From NCBI GenBank assembly GCA_019323515.1, contig JAHWHG010000004.1, positions 1,859-65,858 on the forward strand: a DNA stretch of 64,000 nucleotides. The letters run 5' to 3'. Every line of letters begins with the position of its first letter. Position 1 is the stretch's first letter. The notes under the pieces were generated by a model. The model was not told the DNA's origin and ran no database searches. It was given only the letters and a program-made list of their open reading frames with translations. The stretch comes from Candidatus Woesearchaeota archaeon. GTDB taxonomy: Archaea; Nanobdellota; Nanobdellia; Woesearchaeales; JAHWHD01. The position numbers were made by a program, and so were the translations under genes. Shown here one piece after another: positions 31,101-54,521 of the stretch.

Positions 31101-34100
31101 TAGTCAGTAAGAGTCAAACAGGTAAGAAAATTATAGATTTTGCTACTAAATATGCTGATGATGTAAGACTTGGACAGATGGCTGAGCAAATTGATGATGT
31201 GACAAATAATCTCGTTAAAGAAAGTTGGATGCTTAAGTTAAAGAATAAGGTTGTAAAGACTATTTGGAAAAATGCTGATGATGCTGCTGTCCAGACAGCT
31301 GATGACGCGCTTGCACAGATTACAAGCCTTAAGAATCAGTTTGTTAATGCAAGGGCTGCAGGTGATGTAACAAAAGCTAACCAAATAACTCAACAAATCG
31401 CAAGAATACAAGCTGATGCTTTAGCAAAGATAAATGGCCAATATCTAGGATTAGCAAAACAAGGTGCACAGATGTTAGTAAAATCTGCAAGTTTTGAAGA
31501 AATCAAGGAGGAAGCACAAGAAGAACTTGCAGGAGATATAGGTAAGAACCTCAAGGATAAATTAGGGGGTTCTGCTGGGGTTTTAGCAGAAGCACTTGTT
31601 ATTTTTTACAATATGAGAAAAGGAATTGTCAGCGGCACTATTTCAAGCGCAGATGTAAACCTTTACAACAACCAACTTAAAACAGCATCAAACGCGATGC
31701 TTAAACCTTTTGTAGATACTAATTTCCAAAATAAGGTCATTGTGTTCGATGGGAATAATTATGATTTCAAAACTAATCCAGATGGATCAATCACCTTGAT
31801 TAACAGCGATGGTGTTACTGTGAAAAAAATTGATGGACTTCTTGACTTACAAGCATTAGTAAGAGAAGGGAGAGTGCAGGTTCCAGGTGTTGTTGATTTG
31901 AATGTGTTAGTGGATAAAGCTGCATTAGATATACCTCTTAATGTTGAGAATGCAAGGACTGATGCTGAGATAGACACATTAAGGACAGAACTACTTGATC
32001 CTGGGATAACAGCAGAAAGGAAAGCAGAGGTACAAGCTAGGATTGAAAGCCTTGAGAGCCATAAAAATGAGATTGGAAAAAGCATTGATGCGCAAAAGTC
32101 TAATGTTGATATAAAACAAAAGAAACAGGAATTAGCTGATGCTGAGCAACAGGGTGACCTAAACAAGATACAGGAAACTACAACAGCCCTTAGAGAAGCT
32201 GAGACTGCAAGAGCTAACAGTCTTTCTGAACTACATACTGCACAAATTGAAGGGATTGAAGCAAGGAAGAGGGCTTATGAAAGTAAGATTGCTGAAACTA
32301 AGAAGACACTTGCGGGAGAGACTGATGCAAAGGTTCAGGCTGAGATTGAGGCAAAGTTGAATTCGTTACAGGCGCTTTTATTGGATGCTGATGTTGAGAT
32401 ATTGGCAGCAGAATCTGCAAAGTTAGAAGCAGAGATTGATAGTCTGAGAAAGCAGAGTAAGATTGCAAGTGATACCGAGAAAGCAAGACTTGAACAGGAG
32501 ATTGAGCAGAAAAGAAAGCAGTTACTTGATAAATCGATTCAGCAAAAAGAGGCAGAGATAGAGAGAGAACAGGCAGTGCAACAGACTGTGGCTGATGAAC
32601 TAAAGAAAGTAGAAGGTGACACCACTGGATTGTTTGTAGGGAGTGATATTTCGGGTTTAAGAGCGTTACAGGATGCAACTGATAGGTTAATCGAGCAAAA
32701 ACAAGAACAAAAAGAGACTTTAGAAAGGCAGAAGGAATTTAATGAGAAAGAAGGTAATGATGATGTTAAAAGACAGCAGAATGAGTTAGAAGAAAGAAAG
32801 AGTGATTTCTTTAGGGATGTTGAAGACTACCATGCACTTAAAGAGTCTGAAAAAGAGAGTGAAGCTGGTAAAGCTTTAAGGGCTAAGTTAGAGAATGAAC
32901 AAAAGGCAATAACTGTCAACCAATTACAGATTGATGCTGCAGTGCAAAAATCTTTAGGTACAACTGAGCCTGTTTCTGAAGAAGGAAGGCTTCAGAAGAA
33001 GGCATTGGAAAAGGTTGAATCGTCAATCAAAGAGGATCAGCAGCTTGACACCGACGAAAAAGAAGCAGTGAGCGAACTGACTAAGTTGCAGAATGAGAAA
33101 CAGAAGAAGGAAAGACAGGTTGAGTATGTTGAAGGAGAGATGGCAAAACCTGATGTTGGTGATGAGTATGAACTTGATGGGAAAAAGTATAAAGTAACTA
33201 ATATCTTAACAATCGGAGGAAAAACATATTATGAGGTTCAAACTGAGTCCGGCGAAATAAGAGGATTCACTGCAGAGAAGATACAGGCAGCGACTAAGAT
33301 TTCTAGTAGCCTAACTGCGAAGAGAGGGGTATTAAATACTATAAGGATACAACTTGAGAATGATATCAATAATATTGAAACACAAGAAAAAACTGTTGAA
33401 GAGAATTCTGATACTAAGGATGCACAAAAAGAGGCTGAGAAAGAGCCTGAACAAGTTACAAAAGAGAAAAGGATAACGGATTTGACTGCTCAGATTAATG
33501 AACTTGATGGTAAGATTGCTGAAGCTGAAAGGAATGGAGATTTTGTTTCACTTGAAGATCAACAAAGATTGAACAGGCTTAAGCTTGAGAGAGGCACATT
33601 AGAATTAGATTTACTATTAGGAAAAAAACTTGAACCGACAGAGGTGGAAGTTGCCAAGGAGCAGCAGGTGAAAGCCTTAACTGCTCAGATCAATGAACTT
33701 GGTGCAAAGATTGCAGAAGCTGAAAGAAGAGGTGACTTTGTCTCGGCTGAAGATCAACAGACTTTAGAGAGGCTTAAGACACAGAGGGCTGGTTTAGAGT
33801 TAGAGATATTATTAGGAGCAGACTTTGAAGCAGCAGAAGCAGTACAACCTGAACTAAAGATAGGAGAACCTGCCAAAGTCACAGAAGACGCAGGTACTCT
33901 AAAACAACAACTACAACAGCAAGGGGTACGCCAGGACCTAATAGACCAGGCTGGTGATGATATTGGCCAGTTAGAGACTTTGTTAAGAAGAGCAGGTACA
34001 CCAGAAAGCAGGGCAGAGGCAAGGCAGTTTGCAAGGAGAGTAACACCATCACAGATGGAGAGAAGCAGGTTGGCTGAACTAACAAGTGAAGCGCAAAGGG

Positions 34101-51834: not shown

Positions 51835-51931
51835 ATGCCTCTGTAGCATAGGTAGGAACTGAATTCCTCGGTTCAAAAGGAAATACGACTCCTAGTTGCA
51901 AGCAACCGGAGTCCCATAAATAAAAACCAAT
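51835..51931 (+). other. duplicated tRNA-Thr 5' fragment (17 nt) plus hairpin element GACTCC-TA-GTTGC..GCAAC-C-GGAGTC
   Basis: ATGCCTCTGTAGCATAG at 51835-51851 is identical to 51930-51946 (the start of tRNA-Thr). It is followed by the hairpin GGAA/TTCC (51855-51867) and the conserved hairpin at 51887-51913. No T-arm or 3' acceptor follows. Confidence 0.7.
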
Positions 51932-52027
51932 GCCTCTGTAGCATAGTAGCTATTGCGATGGCCTTGTATGCGTTATAATAACGTAGAAGTAAGCCATAGG
52001 TCGGGGGTGCAAATCCCCCCAGAGGCT
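51932..52027 (+). tRNA. tRNA-Thr(UGU) with 23-nt canonical (37/38) intron
   Basis: Acceptor GCCTCTG/CAGAGGC; anticodon stem ATGGC/GCCAT; loop CTTGTA|intron 51969-51991|A; T-arm GGGGG-TGCAAAT-CCCCC; discriminator T. The D-loop lacks GG and the T-loop reads TGC rather than TTC, which is unusual. Confidence 0.75.
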
Positions 52028-52063
52028 TATTACATATTTGTAACTGAAATAGGGTGTTATAAG

Positions 52064-52687
52064 ATGAAGATAATATTTCTAGGGAAACCTGGTTCTGGGA
52101 AAGGAACACAAGCAAAAAAGTTAGCTAACCATCTGAAGATTCCGCATATTTCTACAGGTCAGATGTTCAGGTTTGCATATCAGGACAAGACCACATTAGG
52201 GATAAAGGCACATGACGAGTATTGGGGCAAGGGTAAACTTGTGCCTGATGATATAACAAATAAACTTATTGAAGAAAGGTTAATTAAGTGCAAGAATGGA
52301 TTTATACTTGATGGATATCCCAGGACAGTTAACCAGGCAGAGTTCTTGAAAAAACTAGGACATGAGATTGATTTAGTGATTGACCTTGATGTTCCTGATG
52401 AAGTTGTTATAGATAGGATTTCAGGTAGAAGGACATGTCCAAGATGTGGCACGAATTATAATATATTGACATCTCCAAAGCCGAAACAAGAGGGGATGTG
52501 CGATAAATGTAATGTTGAACTTTACCAGAGAGATGATCAGAAGCCTGAGGTTGTAAAAATAAGGTTAAAAGAGTATAAAGATTTGACAAAGCCACTTAAA
52601 GAGTTCTATAAAGATAAGATTAAATTGGTTGATGGAAACAAAGACATTGATTCAATATTCAAGGATATTCTTAAGCTTGTGAAATGA
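52064..52687 (+). CDS. adk: adenylate kinase (long, Zn-lid type)
   Basis: The start is moved to the ATG at 52064; the tracked start overlaps the tRNA. P-loop FLGKPGSGKGTQ, LDGYPRT, and lid CPRCGTNYN...CDKCN. Confidence 0.9.
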   Translation: MKIIFLGKPGSGKGTQAKKLANHLKIPHISTGQMFRFAYQDKTTLGIKAHDEYWGKGKLVPDDITNKLIEERLIKCKNGFILDGYPRTVNQAEFLKKLGHEIDLVIDLDVPDEVVIDRISGRRTCPRCGTNYNILTSPKPKQEGMCDKCNVELYQRDDQKPEVVKIRLKEYKDLTKPLKEFYKDKIKLVDGNKDIDSIFKDILKLVK

Positions 52688-53121
52688 TATTTACAACGCA
52701 TCTTCTAGCAGGGTTATTACTTTGGAAAACATTTAAGGTAGGGTTTTGGGCTTTTGTTTTAGGAGCAGTTATCTTAGATATAGATCATCTATATGTCTAT
52801 ATCAAGCAAGGTATCTATAATCCTATTACGATGTTTAAGCACAGCAGTGATCCTAAGTACGGAAATCATAGGACGCATTGGCATTCAATAATTGGGGTCT
52901 TTGTAATATCATTTGTAGTATGGTTATTTAATAGAGAATTTGGATTGTTCTTTGGATTAGGCATGTTATCCCATATATCTTTAGATGCTCTTGATAAAAA
53001 GGGAATAACATTCTTGTTTTATCCTGTTAAAGGATATCAGAGAGGTATCTTTAATTTTAATGTCATAACAGAATTGATTGTGACTAGTCTTCTGATTTGT
53101 ACAGTTCTTCTATTACTGTAG
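52684..53121 (+). CDS. membrane-bound metal-dependent hydrolase-like protein (DUF457/YdjM-like)
   Basis: 4 TM helices with conserved His/Asp clusters (LDIDHLY, HWHS, SHISLDALD). Confidence 0.5.
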   Translation: MIFTTHLLAGLLLWKTFKVGFWAFVLGAVILDIDHLYVYIKQGIYNPITMFKHSSDPKYGNHRTHWHSIIGVFVISFVVWLFNREFGLFFGLGMLSHISLDALDKKGITFLFYPVKGYQRGIFNFNVITELIVTSLLICTVLLLL

Positions 53122-54058
53122 TTGCGTACGAACCTTTTGGAAGCGAGAAAGTAAGAAGTTGTTTGAACATTCCTTTGTTTAATTCGTCCAAGTCAGTTTT
53201 GATTTCCAAATCTTTAATCTCAGTAAAAGCTTTTCTTTTATCTCCTTCTGCAGAAAGCTCTGGTATCTGAGGGATTATAAAGTCGCGGAGTGTAATTATC
53301 TCAGAATCCATAAAATTTTTTATTATATTATCAACAACACTATCGCCAAGTTCAGTTCCAAAACCTAATATAGGAATAAATTCCACCTTATGGTTGTCCT
53401 TCAAGCATTTTTCCAGGGTCTTGTTCCATATATAAGATTGGTATGAATGAACATACATGCGCAGGATTTTAATGTTAATCTTTCTTAAAGCGCCAACAAA
53501 GTCGTTAGGTTTATGGGTTATATGGTCAAGAACCTTGGATTCTTGGTCTCCAGTATTTTCAAGAATAAGTTCAACTGCTTTTTTGAAATATTTCTTGATT
53601 ATAGCTTTTCCAATCTCTGCATTGTTCCTACTGAAGCGCTGCTGTCCAAAGTAGTTAGGTATCTTTGGGACATGCTCGACTAACTGATTCTTTTCAAGGT
53701 TTCTTACAATGATAATAAATTGATTTCCAATCAAGTCACCAAGGGATAGTGGAGTATCGCCGTATCCATAAAAGTTCAACTCGATATCCTTTAAAGTTAT
53801 ATTAGCTATCTTTTCTTTAGAAACTGATTTTTTAATTGAAATAAGTTGCTCTGTTACAGCTGATTTATCCTTAGTGCCTGCAAAGCCAATTGATTTTGAG
53901 TTGATTTTTAACTTGGAGGCTAATGTTTCAATTGCTCGTAAAGTGGTGTAATTCTTCTTCTTAAGCCAGATATACGTGTAACTGCCTGAATCTTTAGGCT
54001 TGAGATTAGTTATTTCCTTTACTATAAAATCCTCTGGATGCTGCTTAATCTTGTACAT
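53084..54058 (-). CDS. truD: tRNA pseudouridine synthase D (TruD/Pus7 family)
   Basis: KQHPEDFIVKEI, then FAGTKDKSAVTEQ (catalytic Asp motif GxKDxxAxTxQ), then NYFGQQRF. Confidence 0.88.
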   Translation of the reverse strand: MYKIKQHPEDFIVKEITNLKPKDSGSYTYIWLKKKNYTTLRAIETLASKLKINSKSIGFAGTKDKSAVTEQLISIKKSVSKEKIANITLKDIELNFYGYGDTPLSLGDLIGNQFIIIVRNLEKNQLVEHVPKIPNYFGQQRFSRNNAEIGKAIIKKYFKKAVELILENTGDQESKVLDHITHKPNDFVGALRKINIKILRMYVHSYQSYIWNKTLEKCLKDNHKVEFIPILGFGTELGDSVVDNIIKNFMDSEIITLRDFIIPQIPELSAEGDKRKAFTEIKDLEIKTDLDELNKGMFKQLLTFSLPKGSYATTVIEELYKSED

Positions 54059-54076
54059 AATCTTTAAAAATAAGGC

Positions 54077-54091
54077 AAAAATATATAAAAA
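54077..54091 (+). promoter_or_regulatory. TATA-box-like element upstream of the tRNA-Arg locus
   Basis: AAAATATATAAAAA is centred about 30 nt upstream of 54115, the first GCGCCTG. The second GCGCCTG copy at 54251 has no comparably spaced box. Confidence 0.4.
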
Positions 54092-54108
54092 TGACTCAAA
54101 TTAAGAGC

Positions 54109-54244
54109 AAATATGCGCCTGTAGCGCAGCCATGGGAAATGGTTACGCTCATTTCATTAAGTTCGTAAACACGAACTTAAATTCGCAACTTTTGCGAATT
54201 TAGCAAGATACGACTCCTAGTCGCTTTGCGACCGGAGTCCTATA
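54109..54244 (+). repeat. first copy of a 136-nt tandem unit: tRNA-Arg 5' exon (GCGCCTGTAGCGCAG) plus three-hairpin intron-like RNA
   Basis: A 21-nt identity AAATATGCGCCTGTAGCGCAG links 54109-54129 and 54245-54265. The hairpins are TTAAGTTCG/CGAACTTAA (54157-54180), AATTCGCAA/TTGCGAATT (54180-54200) and GACTCC..GGAGTC (54212-54239). Each has a structural counterpart in the second unit. Confidence 0.75.
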
Positions 54245-54250
54245 AAATAT

Positions 54251-54521
54251 GCGCCTGTAGCGCAGTCTGGTAACTGGTTACGCTCGGTTAACTAAGTTTG
54301 CTAAGGCAAACTTAAATTCGTTGGTTAAGCGAATTTAGCAAAAGGCGACTCCTAGTCTACGACCGGAGTCCCCTGCGGAGAGGTGTAACGGTTGGGCAAA
54401 TAGCGCGACAGCCTCCTACGCTGATGATGAGCTCTGGAGTAGTACTTTGCTTTGCAAAGTAGAAAGAGAGTTAGCAGAAGCAGAAAGCTGTAGGTCGGGG
54501 GTTCGAATCCCCTCAGGCGCG
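54251..54521 (+). tRNA. tRNA-Arg(CCU) with a long non-canonical intron in the D-loop region and a second about 67-nt intron at or near the anticodon loop (exact splice sites unresolved)
   Basis: 5' GCGCCTG-TA-GCGC-AG...(about 130 nt)...AAATA-GCGC-G-ACAGC-CTCCTA...(about 67 nt)...A-GCTGT-AGGTC-GGGGG-TTCGAAT-CCCCT-CAGGCGC-G. The acceptor, D, anticodon and T stems all pair, and the anticodon CCT lies at 54412-54414. Confidence 0.65.

What the first reader, a model, noticed from the sequence alone, without database searches (positions are those of the whole stretch)
51887..54370. Conserved hairpin element GACTCC-TA-[GYN stem]-C-GGAGTCC in three copies at two tRNA loci, with covariation
The copies lie at 51887-51913 (inner stem GTTGC/GCAAC), 54212-54239 (GTCGC/GCGAC) and 54347-54370 (GTC/GAC). 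The outer 6-bp helix, the TA bulge and the single C bulge are invariant. The inner helix differs by compensatory changes. Each copy is preceded by A-rich sequence ending (A/G)(T/G)(A/G)C and, in two of the three copies, followed by (C/T)ATAAA.

The element always sits just downstream of a (duplicated) tRNA 5' fragment. That pattern fits a mobile or transposed tRNA-intron module, as proposed for Thermoproteales intron transposition, or a processing or protein-binding signal. I could not match it to a known RNA family by eye.
Basis: seen in the sequence. Interest (0 to 1): 0.6.

Follow-up and report, generated by a model that had tools for sequence, protein, structure and literature searches.

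The report
Mobile hairpin module of archaeal tRNA introns
The three hairpins are the conserved end of a small structured module that one order of tiny archaea (Woesearchaeota type) carries inside tRNA introns and, as cut-down copies flanked by duplicated tRNA ends, beside tRNA genes; these copies look like snapshots of how archaeal tRNA introns spread.

Summary
All three hairpins are at the stated coordinates (chance expectation 0.04). They are the terminal stem-loop (Pc) of a larger module. The module has hairpin Pa (NAACUG/CRGUUN), a linker that often reads ACACGC, and a 3-bp foot helix P0. P0 is separated from Pc by a C*C mismatch.

This genome holds five copies. A covariance model finds the module in 18 of 151 genomes of the same order, and nowhere else in the phylum sample. 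It was absent from the 39 viral contigs that matched the hairpin pattern. All three helices covary (96% of cells paired; 0 of 500 shuffles reach the observed score).

The copy at 54347-54370 lies in a true 129-nt D-loop intron of tRNA-Arg(CCU), which has a clean relaxed bulge-helix-bulge site.

The other two copies (51887-51913 and 54212-54239) lie in truncated units: a tRNA 5' end plus the intron's 5' two-thirds, without the 3' splice half. Direct repeats of 17 and 21 nt flank them, and an intact 5' end of the same tRNA follows.

Related genomes show the same architecture in antisense orientation at tRNA 3' ends and in non-tRNA DNA. Two relatives have an empty site where this genome has a filled one.

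I read this as a tRNA-intron-derived element that spreads by duplication at the DNA level. The mechanism is unknown. Reverse transcriptase and Y1 transposase are absent from this genome and from a complete relative.

The parts
51835..51851 (+). Direct repeat copy 1 at locus 1: ATGCCTCTGTAGCATAG. This is 2 nt of flank plus tRNA-Thr positions 1-15, and forms the orphan 5' fragment.
   Evidence: 17/17 identical to 51930-51946; sequence.
51852..51929 (+). Truncated module F1: GTAG, then Pa (51856-51861 / 51869-51874, loop AAUUCCU), the linker, Pc (51887-51913), and the A-rich tail CCATAAATAAAAACCA. It has no 3' splice half.
   Evidence: CM hit of 69.6 bits, E 2.5e-13. Fold shows Pa and Pc. No consistent BHB partner was found.
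51887..51913 (+). Hairpin Pc, copy 1 of the finding.
   Evidence: -11.9 kcal/mol, z -5.0.
51932..52027 (+). Intact tRNA-Thr(UGU) with a canonical 23-nt intron. Its first 15 nt, plus 2 nt of leader, form direct repeat copy 2 (51930-51946).
   Evidence: Rfam tRNA at 55.8 bits; ARAGORN with introns allowed.
54109..54129 (+). Direct repeat copy 1 at locus 2: AAATATGCGCCTGTAGCGCAG. This is 6 nt of leader plus tRNA-Arg positions 1-15.
   Evidence: 21/21 identical to 54245-54265.
54130..54244 (+). Truncated module U1. It comprises a D-loop-like CCATGG, Pa (54136-54141 / 54150-54155, loop GUUACGCU), two inserted hairpins (54158-54179 and 54181-54199), P0 (54208-54210 / 54241-54243) and Pc (54212-54239). 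It has no 3' splice half.
   Evidence: CM hit of 44.3 bits and fold. U1 is absent from the orthologous loci of G001 and G002.
54212..54239 (+). Hairpin Pc, copy 2 of the finding.
   Evidence: -16.9 kcal/mol, P0 included.
54251..54270 (+). 5' exon of tRNA-Arg(CCU), positions 1 to G19. The D-loop nucleotides GUCU (54265-54268) form the central BHB helix, and G18 G19 form bulge 1.
   Evidence: BHB script: H GTCT:GGGC, B1 GG|T, B2 AA|A.
54271..54399 (+). 129-nt D-loop intron carrying the full module U2. It comprises Pa (54271-54276 / 54285-54290), two inserted hairpins (54293-54314 and 54316-54334), P0 (54343-54345 / 54372-54374) and Pc (54347-54370). The 3' tail is GUAACGGUU (h' partner of the intron's 5' end), then GGGC (54394-54397, H), then AA (bulge 2).
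   Evidence: The same motif was found in 11 of 16 D-loop introns of relatives. CM hit of 34.5 bits.
54347..54370 (+). Hairpin Pc, copy 3 of the finding, inside the genuine intron.
54400..54521 (+). The rest of tRNA-Arg(CCU): D-stem 3' strand, anticodon arm with anticodon CCU, about 75 nt of further intervening sequence (about 54419-54493, not resolved here), T arm, acceptor 3' strand and discriminator. A T7 terminator follows.
   Evidence: Hand reading. Weak partial Rfam tRNA hit at 54394-54453. Orthologues were seen.

Best explanation
The hairpin (Pc) is the 3' stem-loop of a structured module specific to one archaeal order (Woesearchaeota type). The module belongs to protein-spliced (bulge-helix-bulge, BHB) tRNA introns and has also been copied around the genome at the DNA level.

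Complete form (shown). The module fills the loop of a D-loop intron inserted after G19.
- The intron's 5' end, AACUG(G)UUAC.., is the Pa 5' strand plus its loop. It pairs with the 3' tail ..GUAA-CGGUU to make helix h'.
- D-loop nucleotides GYCY pair with the last intron nucleotides GGRC to make the 4-bp central helix.
- G18 G19|N and AA|N are the two bulges that the splicing endonuclease cuts.
- Window copy 3 (54347-54370) is in such an intron of tRNA-Arg(CCU).
- Pc is not part of the splice site. Orthologous introns in two relatives lack it, so it is dispensable for splicing.

Truncated form (architecture shown, origin inferred). Window copies 1 and 2, and two more copies in this genome, have this layout:
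- the tRNA's first 15-19 nt, the module up to Pc and P0, and a short A-rich tail;
- no 3' splice half;
- then an intact copy of the same tRNA 5' end.

The overall layout is [A][module][A][B], where A is a direct repeat of 12-88 nt. In relatives A can instead be the reverse complement of a tRNA 3' end (from the T loop to the trailer), or non-tRNA DNA.

I infer that these are products of duplicative DNA insertion or template-switch copying of the module. They survive only where the duplication leaves an intact gene. In sense orientation they are carried as a long 5' leader, which RNase P (present in this genome) removes.

Three features suggest Pc is a cis recognition or stability handle on one single strand (RNA or ssDNA) for a factor not yet identified:
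- its invariant outer stem, UA/C internal loop and C*C foot;
- its freely varying inner stem;
- strand-specific G-U pairs.

This last step is inference only.
For: Module structure and distribution:
- The hairpin pattern has three copies in the window against a chance expectation of 0.04, and only these three in the 1.12-Mb genome.
- The covariance model (CM) finds five copies in this genome and hits in 18 of 151 genomes of the order. All 7 positives in a 201-genome phylum sample belong to the same order.
- None of the 39 viral contigs matching the hairpin pattern carries the module. Positives among named records are labelled Woesearchaeota or Nanoarchaeota.

Covariation:
- Pa is 100% paired, and all 6 pairs show changes on both sides.
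- P0 pair 46-116 reads GC 11, AU 7, UA 7.
- Overall 95.9% of cells are paired, against 77% in shuffles (0 of 500 reach the observed value) and at most 46% with slid partners.
- G-U pairs occur on the module strand only.

Intron form:
- A script finds the H / bulge / h' motif at the expected splice sites in 11 of 16 D-loop introns, including U2.
- The predicted splice product of L022 equals the D loop of an intron-less paralogue.
- The splicing endonuclease domain is present in relatives.
- A 34-nt intron without Pc sits at the same position in another tRNA of this genome.
- The orthologous Arg introns of G001 and G002 lack Pc.

Truncated form:
- Direct repeats of 12-88 nt adjoin the module in sense, antisense and non-tRNA contexts.
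- tRNA-Thr(CGU) is empty in G001 and G002, but this genome carries an extra 89 nt there, including a 17-nt duplication.
- U1 is absent from G001 and G002.
- Fragments range from identical to decayed.
- No usable 3' splice partner exists for the fragment units.
- No orphan 3' halves exist.
- RNase P RNA is present.
Against: - No machinery was found. Reverse transcriptase is absent from 14 of 16 module-bearing genomes, including a complete one. Y1 transposase is absent from this genome and from that complete genome. No ORF lies inside any repeat-flanked copy examined.
- Gain versus loss at the Thr(CGU) locus is not polarised. The two 'empty' genomes belong to one genus, so a single repeat-mediated deletion would explain the pattern equally well.
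- The fragment+module unit 5' of tRNA-Thr(UGU) is present in all three genomes of the family, although coding DNA there is only 65-69% identical. In one relative the module is intact while the fragment has decayed (L020). Both suggest selection on the module, not a neutral scar.
- In most sense copies the outer end of the repeat lies within 0-7 nt of tRNA position +1. That is tighter than random staggered cuts would give.
- Hairpin covariation can also arise from quasi-palindrome template switching in DNA, so it does not prove an RNA function.
- No expression data were available.
Confidence: 0.6

Rival explanations
1. The fragment+module units are selected, functional RNAs. They might act as a structured 5' leader or a released small RNA. 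The tRNA-like 5' end could pair with the tRNA's 3' acceptor strand or D arm, working as a folding or processing chaperone, a decoy, or a regulator of that tRNA. Pc would be its protein-binding site.
For: - The unit 5' of tRNA-Thr(UGU) is kept in three genomes of two genera, although neighbouring genes are 65-69% identical.
- All four fragments in this genome are 100% identical to their tRNA over 17-21 nt, while U1 and U2 differ by about 30% with compensatory changes.
- The module is intact where the fragment has decayed (L020).
- The minimum-free-energy fold of locus 1 pairs the upstream fragment with the tRNA 3' end.
- The Pa loop GGUUACGCU is complementary to the common D-arm 5' strand AGCGCAGCC (by eye).
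- The spacer to the tRNA is too short for a separate promoter, so the unit is co-transcribed.
Against: - About a third of repeat-flanked copies are antisense to the tRNA, at its 3' end, and some lie in non-tRNA DNA with 77-88 nt repeats.
- Fragments decay in several genomes, including changes at position 1 or in the acceptor stem.
- Two relatives do without the unit at tRNA-Thr(CGU) and at tRNA-Arg.
- No expression data were available.
Confidence: 0.2
2. The repeats are what remains of larger mobile cassettes that carry their own copy of a tRNA end. Candidates are integrative elements or free-standing LAGLIDADG homing-endonuclease cassettes. In this reading the upstream fragment is the stranded original gene end, and the module is the residue of the cassette. 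This follows the Caldiarchaeum tRNA-Thr model.
For: - The layout [old fragment][insert][new gene end][rest of gene] is the one described for Caldiarchaeum subterraneum tRNA-Thr(GGU) (PMC3293823).
- LAGLIDADG_3 genes occur in 7 of 8 genomes tested. In this genome one lies directly 5' of the intron-bearing tRNA-Thr(GGU).
- Repair of a double-strand break from a filled allele would reproduce the repeat architecture without reverse transcriptase.
Against: - None of about 25 repeat-flanked copies holds an ORF. Inserts are only 60-125 nt.
- The insert is homologous to the interior of ordinary D-loop and T-loop introns, not to a cassette.
- No tRNA fragment was seen upstream of the LAGLIDADG gene in this genome.
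- An integrase with a fixed attachment site cannot explain a different repeat at each target.
Confidence: 0.12
3. The fragments are 5' halves of split (trans-spliced) tRNAs, or alternative 5' exons. The hairpin would help bring the halves together.
For: - The genome has very few tRNA genes detectable by standard tools.
- The fragments end at the same D-loop position (G19) as the real intron.
- The Pa 5' strand plus loop is the strand that pairs with the 3' tail in complete introns.
Against: - The tail motif occurs only in the two complete D-loop introns of this genome, so there are no orphan 3' halves.
- Every fragment sits next to an intact tRNA of the same kind.
- No consistent BHB can join a fragment to downstream exons.
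- tRNA-Thr(GGU), the isoacceptor that seemed missing, was found as an ordinary intron-bearing gene.
- The hairpin is self-complementary and nearly identical at all loci, so it cannot give partner specificity.
Confidence: 0.03

Closest known systems
Non-canonical BHB tRNA introns and 'large-scale intron transposition' in Thermoproteales (Fujishima et al. 2010, as summarised in PMC4033280)
   Same: - Similar intron sequences occur in different tRNA species and at different positions within one archaeal order.
- Introns sit at D-loop and T-loop positions and are cut at relaxed BHB motifs.
- The genomes have many multi-intron tRNAs.
   Different: - The lineage differs (DPANN, Woesearchaeota type).
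- The shared part is a defined, covarying, multi-helix module with an invariant hairpin.
- The module also exists outside introns, as truncated repeat-flanked copies in both orientations and in non-tRNA DNA. I did not find this described for Thermoproteales in the papers I read.
tRNA-Thr(GGU) gene disruption in Caldiarchaeum subterraneum (Sugahara et al. 2012, PMC3293823)
   Same: - A 5' tRNA fragment lies upstream of an intact, intron-bearing copy of the same tRNA.
- The arrangement is read as a footprint of an insertion that brings a new gene end.
- It is linked to intron gain.
- tRNA-Thr is a recurrent target.
   Different: - There the insert is 1.8 kb and encodes a putative recombinase. 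Here it is 60-125 nt, non-coding, and homologous to intron interiors.
- Here the orphan fragment itself carries the intron-like module.
- Antisense copies at tRNA 3' ends also exist here.
Split tRNA genes of Nanoarchaeum equitans and tri-split tRNAs of Caldivirga (summarised in PMC4033280)
   Same: A tRNA 5' piece is followed by structured, non-tRNA sequence, in a DPANN relative.
   Different: - There are no matching 3' halves here.
- An intact gene lies next to each fragment.
- The trailing sequence is a self-folding hairpin shared by all loci, not a partner-specific complementary strand.
MITEs and SINE-like non-autonomous elements
   Same: The element is short, non-coding, structured and multi-copy. 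It has a patchy distribution, flanking direct repeats and an A-rich 3' tail.
   Different: - There are no terminal inverted repeats.
- Repeat length varies from 12 to 88 nt.
- No reverse transcriptase is present in most host genomes.
- The element is strongly tied to tRNA genes and doubles as an intron interior.

Membership tests
Archaeal BHB (protein-spliced) tRNA intron - applies to copy 3 (U2, 54271-54399) | The sequence interrupts a tRNA gene, and removing it gives a canonical cloverleaf. | tested here: met
   Removing 54271-54399 gives the D arm GCGC-AGUCUGGAUA-GCGC. The acceptor, anticodon CCU and T arm are present. Orthologues have an intron at the same site.
Archaeal BHB (protein-spliced) tRNA intron - applies to copy 3 (U2, 54271-54399) | A bulge-helix-bulge or relaxed HBh' motif at the exon-intron boundaries: a 4-bp central helix flanked by two 3-nt bulges. 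| tested here: met
   H GUCU:GGGC, bulges GG|U and AA|A, and h' AACUG:CGGUU extended after a 1-nt bulge. The same motif occurs in 11 of 16 related D-loop introns. The outer helix h is not contiguous, so this is the relaxed type.
Archaeal BHB (protein-spliced) tRNA intron - applies to copy 3 (U2, 54271-54399) | A splicing endonuclease (EndA) is encoded by the organism. | tested here: inconclusive
   PF01974 was found in G001, G002, G018 and G056, but not in this 76%-complete assembly.
Archaeal BHB (protein-spliced) tRNA intron - applies to copy 3 (U2, 54271-54399) | Splicing is observed in RNA. | not testable with these tools
BHB intron - applied to copies 1 and 2 (F1, U1) | A 3' splice half that can form the BHB with the fragment's D loop. 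| tested here: not met
   There is no tail motif after Pc. The scripts find no consistent partner that yields a tRNA.
Split / trans-spliced tRNA | Separate 3' half genes whose leader is complementary to the 5' half's trailer, with no intact gene for that tRNA. | tested here: not met
   The tail motif occurs only in the two complete introns. An intact tRNA lies next to each fragment.
Retroposon (SINE-like, target-primed reverse transcription) | A reverse transcriptase is available in the host. | tested here: not met
   PF00078 is absent from 14 of 16 module-bearing genomes, including G000 and the complete genome G018.
Retroposon (SINE-like, target-primed reverse transcription) | Variable-length target duplications and an A-rich 3' tail. 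| tested here: met
   Repeats are 12-88 nt, mostly 15-23. Tails include CCCAUAAAUAAAAACCA and CCCAUUAAAUA.
IS200/IS605-type hairpin elements (PATE, REP/RAYT) | A Y1 (HUH) transposase in the genome, and no target duplication. | tested here: not met
   PF01797 is absent from G000 and G018, and present in only 8 of 16 module-bearing genomes. Duplications are present.
MITE | Terminal inverted repeats and a target duplication of fixed length. | tested here: not met
   No terminal inverted repeats are shared between copies. Repeat length varies from 12 to 88 nt.
Any Rfam family | A match to a curated covariance model. | tested here: not met
   Only tRNA passes its threshold. Nothing covers the module even at E <= 10.

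The most novel reading that the evidence does not exclude
The module may be a previously undescribed kind of tiny (about 60-125 nt), protein-less mobile element, the portable core of BHB introns. It would seed new tRNA introns. On this reading, it lands in the first loop of a tRNA gene on either strand, with a long target duplication. It survives as a leader or trailer scar when the duplication spares the gene. In sense orientation it matures into a spliceable intron once a 3' tail complementary to its 5' end arises. The invariant Pc hairpin would be the cis site read by a still-unknown host nuclease or recombinase, or by the splicing/ligation machinery acting in reverse. The repeat-flanked copies in this window would then be direct snapshots of the first step of archaeal intron gain.
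Probability: 0.25. Interest if true: 0.85.

Novelty: new variant of a known kind. Interest (0 to 1): 0.62.

Why it matters
How archaeal tRNA introns arrive is an open question. [quoted passage not shown] A 2026 preprint on Asgard tRNA introns states in its abstract that 'how they arrive remains open' (10.64898/2026.10.13.758758).

Here one recognisable module is seen in three states:
- as a working D-loop, T-loop or anticodon-loop intron;
- as a truncated copy with duplicated target ends beside intact tRNA genes, in both orientations;
- in non-tRNA DNA.

There is also a locus that is filled in one genus and empty in another. This gives a concrete, searchable marker (a covariance model) with which to:
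- time and polarise intron gains;
- look for the machinery;
- test whether DNA-level copying, not reverse splicing plus reverse transcription, spreads these introns.

On the practical side, the module helps explain why standard tRNA finders miss most tRNA genes in these genomes.

Tried and rejected
- Known RNA family: Rfam at gathering score and at E <= 10 gives nothing on the module.
- Viral or plasmid origin: all 39 IMG/VR pattern hits are chance, and none matches the CM.
- The exact-pattern scan of all genome contigs is dominated by chance hits in bacteria. Only archaeal DPANN records pass the CM.
- Split tRNA: there are no orphan 3' halves.
- Strict BHB scan: uninformative. Even the canonical introns of this genome have relaxed motifs. 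A motif-specific script then worked for D-loop introns.
- Splicing of fragments to downstream exons: no consistent site.
- Absence of RNase P as a reason for an odd leader: rejected, because RNase P RNA is present.
- Retroposition: reverse transcriptase is absent.
- IS200/IS605- or REP-type mobilisation: Y1 transposase is absent from G000 and G018.
- K-turn, tetraloop-receptor and known small-ribozyme cores: compared by eye only. No match, and not formally tested.
- Strain-level polymorphism through exact-protein look-ups of the neighbouring genes: nothing on record.
- My first regex for Pa in the metagenome loci was faulty. I replaced it with the CM.

Full report
**Observation.**

The window holds the pattern GACTCC-N(8-30)-GGAGTC four times. 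Three matches are the reported copies, at 51887-51913, 54212-54239 and 54347-54370. Dinucleotide shuffles give 0.04 matches. The whole 1.12-Mb, 36% G+C assembly (20 contigs, 76% complete) has no further exact copy.

Each hairpin is the minimum-free-energy fold of its stretch, with z-scores of -3 to -5. The outer helix, the UA bulge and the C bulge are identical in the three copies, and the inner helix differs by paired changes.

**The hairpin is part of a larger module.**

Aligning the loci and their relatives shows a fixed order of parts:
- A hairpin, Pa. It is 6 bp (NAACUG / CRGUUN), with a loop that is often GUUACGCU.
- A linker that often reads ACACGC. Sometimes two extra hairpins precede it.
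- A 3-bp foot helix, P0.
- A C*C mismatch.
- The reported hairpin, Pc.

I built a covariance model from eight copies. It finds:
- five copies in this genome. The two new ones carry a variant Pc (GAC-A-UUCCGC-UUCG-GCGGAA-GUC). They lie just 5' of tRNA-Trp and of tRNA-Thr(CGU), outside the window;
- hits in 18 of 151 genomes of the same order. This is an undercount, because G002 has a copy with another Pc variant that the model missed;
- positives only from the same order in a sample of 201 genomes of the phylum.

None of the 39 viral contigs matching the hairpin pattern contains the module. Named records that do are labelled Woesearchaeota or Nanoarchaeota.

Covariation is strong on 29 distinct sequences:
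- 95.9% of cells are paired, against 77% in shuffles and at most 46% with slid partners.
- 17 of 19 pairs show changes on both sides.
- 0 of 500 shuffles reach the observed score.
- Pa is 100% paired.
- G-U pairs occur on the module strand, so that strand, as RNA or as ssDNA, is the one that folds.

One caveat applies. The alignment was fitted to the model, and hairpin covariation can also come from DNA template switching in quasi-palindromes.

**Copy 3 is in a real intron.**

The sequence 54251-54521 is tRNA-Arg(CCU). After G19 (54270) comes a 129-nt insert (54271-54399) that holds Pa, two extra hairpins, P0 and Pc, and a 3' tail.

A script looked for a 4-bp helix between the D-loop nucleotides before G18 G19 and four nucleotides followed by AA, with an adjoining helix h'. 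In this gene it finds H GUCU:GGGC, bulges GG|U and AA|A, and h' AACUG:CGGUU. It finds the same motif in 11 of 16 D-loop introns of relatives. The rest differ by a 1-nt bulge in h' (by hand).

In L022 the predicted product, GUCCGG+UCAAUCAU, equals the D loop of an intron-less paralogue in another genome. The splicing endonuclease domain is present in four relatives but was not found in this incomplete assembly.

The tail GGTTGGGCAA is thus explained as the end of h', then H, then the bulge.

Pc is not part of the splice motif:
- The orthologous Arg intron of G001 keeps Pa and the two extra hairpins but lacks Pc.
- The G002 intron is a 21-nt mini-hairpin.
- Another tRNA of this genome (contig C1, 119563-119721) has a 34-nt intron at the same site. 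It consists only of the Pa 5' strand plus loop, its complement, H and the bulge.

The module therefore looks like an insertion into the loop of a plain D-loop intron, or the plain introns are deletion derivatives of it.

In a metagenome sample selected for Pc plus P0, Pc sits most often in T-loop introns, behind a different hairpin. It also occurs in anticodon-loop introns.

**Copies 1 and 2 are truncated, repeat-flanked units.**

At locus 1, ATGCCTCTGTAGCATAG (51835-51851) is followed by GTAG, Pa, the linker, Pc and CCATAAATAAAAACCA. The same 17 nt then open the intact tRNA-Thr(UGU) (51930-52027).

At locus 2, AAATATGCGCCTGTAGCGCAG (54109-54129) is followed by module U1, which ends ...GGAGTCCTAT. 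The same 21 nt (54245-54265) then open the real gene.

Neither unit has the 3' tail, and no consistent BHB joins them to downstream exons. The tRNA-Trp and tRNA-Thr(CGU) units outside the window are built the same way, with 17-nt repeats.

The layout [A][module][short A-rich tail][A][B] recurs in relatives and metagenomes in three settings:
- A is a tRNA 5' end reaching the D loop. Examples are L016, L019, L021, L037, L108, L272, L273 and L293.
- A is the reverse complement of a tRNA 3' end, running from the trailer to the T loop. Examples are L025, L032-, L036, L039, L043, L119, two in L140, L229, L279 and L297.
- A is non-tRNA DNA. L040 has an exact 88-nt repeat.

One tRNA (L032) has a sense unit at its 5' end and an antisense unit at its 3' end. 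Repeats range from 12 to 88 nt, mostly 15-23 nt, and from identical to clearly decayed.

**Presence and absence.**

tRNA-Thr(CGU) lies downstream of the same small ORF in this genome, in G001 and in G002. The two relatives have stop codon, 13-15 nt, then the tRNA. This genome has stop codon, 10 nt, [17 nt][72-nt module and tail][17 nt], then the rest of the tRNA.

U1 is likewise absent from G001 and G002. The two relatives belong to one genus, so gain in one lineage and repeat-mediated loss in the other are equally parsimonious.

By contrast, the unit 5' of tRNA-Thr(UGU) is present in all three genomes. G002's fragment has one mismatch, and the middle of the G001 copy is masked. It persists although the neighbouring genes are only 65-69% identical.

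One result is odd. The G002 Thr(UGU) module shares 38 identical nucleotides, plus the 3' foot, with this genome's Thr(CGU) module. Yet the inner Pc stem-loop is entirely different.

**Machinery.**

- Reverse transcriptase (PF00078) is absent from 14 of 16 module-bearing genomes, including this one and a complete single-contig genome.
- Y1 transposase (PF01797) is absent from those two and is not tied to the module.
- LAGLIDADG_3 genes are common. In this genome one lies directly 5' of an intron-bearing tRNA-Thr(GGU), but without a tRNA fragment on its other side.
- RNase P RNA is present, so a long leader can be removed in the ordinary way.

**Interpretation.**

Shown:
- a conserved, covarying, order-restricted module;
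- its role as the interior of genuine BHB introns;
- the truncated repeat-flanked architecture in both orientations;
- one locus filled in one genus and empty in another.

Inferred:
- The truncated units arise by duplicative DNA-level copying. This could be double-strand-break or template-switch repair that uses the short homology of tRNA ends, or an unknown staggered-cut insertion.
- They persist where an intact gene remains.
- Sense copies are transcribed as leaders.

Pc has an invariant outer stem, internal loop and foot mismatch, a free inner stem, and a strand-specific fold. This suggests a recognition or stability handle, but nothing here tests it.

The main rival is that fragment+module is itself a selected RNA. 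That reading is supported by the unit's persistence at Thr(UGU) and by intact modules beside decayed fragments. It is weakened by the antisense and non-tRNA copies and by lineages that lack the units.

**Comparison with what is known.**

The closest cases in print are:
- the inferred intron transposition in Thermoproteales (Fujishima 2010, via PMC4033280);
- the Caldiarchaeum tRNA-Thr fragment model with a 1.8-kb recombinase-bearing insert (PMC3293823).

This case differs in lineage and in having a defined structured module that matches no Rfam family. It also differs in the very small non-coding insert, and in the module's coexistence as intron interior and as repeat-flanked copies on both strands.

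Earlier notes of this scan report the same kind of unit in other Woesearchaeota-type genomes, and LAGLIDADG cassettes carrying tRNA ends. I used them as leads only.

**Limits.**

- The assembly is incomplete.
- The rest of the tRNA-Arg intervening sequence (about 54419-54493) was not resolved.
- The number of non-order genomes in the phylum sample is not listed in the output.

Noticed in passing
whole genome G000 (window = contig C2, 1859-65858): Standard tRNA finders see almost no tRNA genes. Rfam tRNA passes its cut-off at only 5 places. ARAGORN finds 2 genes without its intron option and 10 with it, some with wrong anticodons (for example, 'Phe' for the tRNA-Arg locus). Nearly all tRNA genes appear to carry one or more introns.
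   Followed up: partly
window 54419-54493: About 75 nt of further intervening sequence lies between the anticodon loop CUCCUA and the 3' anticodon-stem strand GCUGU of tRNA-Arg(CCU). It contains UGAUGA, a box-C-like word. No strict BHB was found, and there may be nested introns.
   Followed up: no
window 51932-52027; G000 C5:136056-136148; L052, L223-L226: All tRNA-Thr isoacceptors of this family have a D loop, AGUAGCUA, without the usual GG. Their T loop is UGCAA(A/C/U)U, with G where U55 is normal. This is a lineage-wide elbow variant.
   Followed up: no
G000 C9:4460-5085 (-) and C9:4303-4455 (-): A free-standing LAGLIDADG_3 ORF of about 208 aa ends 5 nt before tRNA-Thr(GGU). That tRNA carries long intervening sequences after its D loop and in its anticodon region.
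   Followed up: partly
G000 C1:119563-119721: A tRNA with a minimal 34-nt D-loop intron, UAACUGGUUACG-UUUGUU-CGUAAUGGUU-GGAU-AA. Its 5' half equals the Pa 5' strand plus loop of the module.
   Followed up: yes
L052 (G002:C93) 121-205 versus G000 C5:136159-136237: Modules at different tRNA-Thr loci in different genera share 38 identical nt plus the 3' foot. The inner hairpin of Pc is completely exchanged.
   Followed up: partly
L053 (G001:C46) 220-319: The stretch between the tRNA-Thr 5' fragment and the intact tRNA-Thr(UGU) of this relative is masked as N in the data provided.
   Followed up: no
L032 (G029:C61) about 1170-1450: One tRNA gene is bracketed by two modules. A sense unit with an 18-20 nt repeat lies at its 5' end, and an antisense unit with a 30-nt repeat lies at its 3' end.
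   Followed up: partly
L045 / L007 (G018:C1:384858-384918): A full module with no detectable repeat lies about 20 nt upstream of the ribosome-binding site of a rubrerythrin-like gene. It may be part of that gene's 5' UTR.
   Followed up: no
L026 (G135:C12), module at 33020-33085 (-): A module sits between two diverged tandem copies (at least 150 nt aligned) of the 5' end of a small ribbon-helix-helix-like gene on the other strand. The end of the module supplies the AT of that gene's ATG.
   Followed up: no
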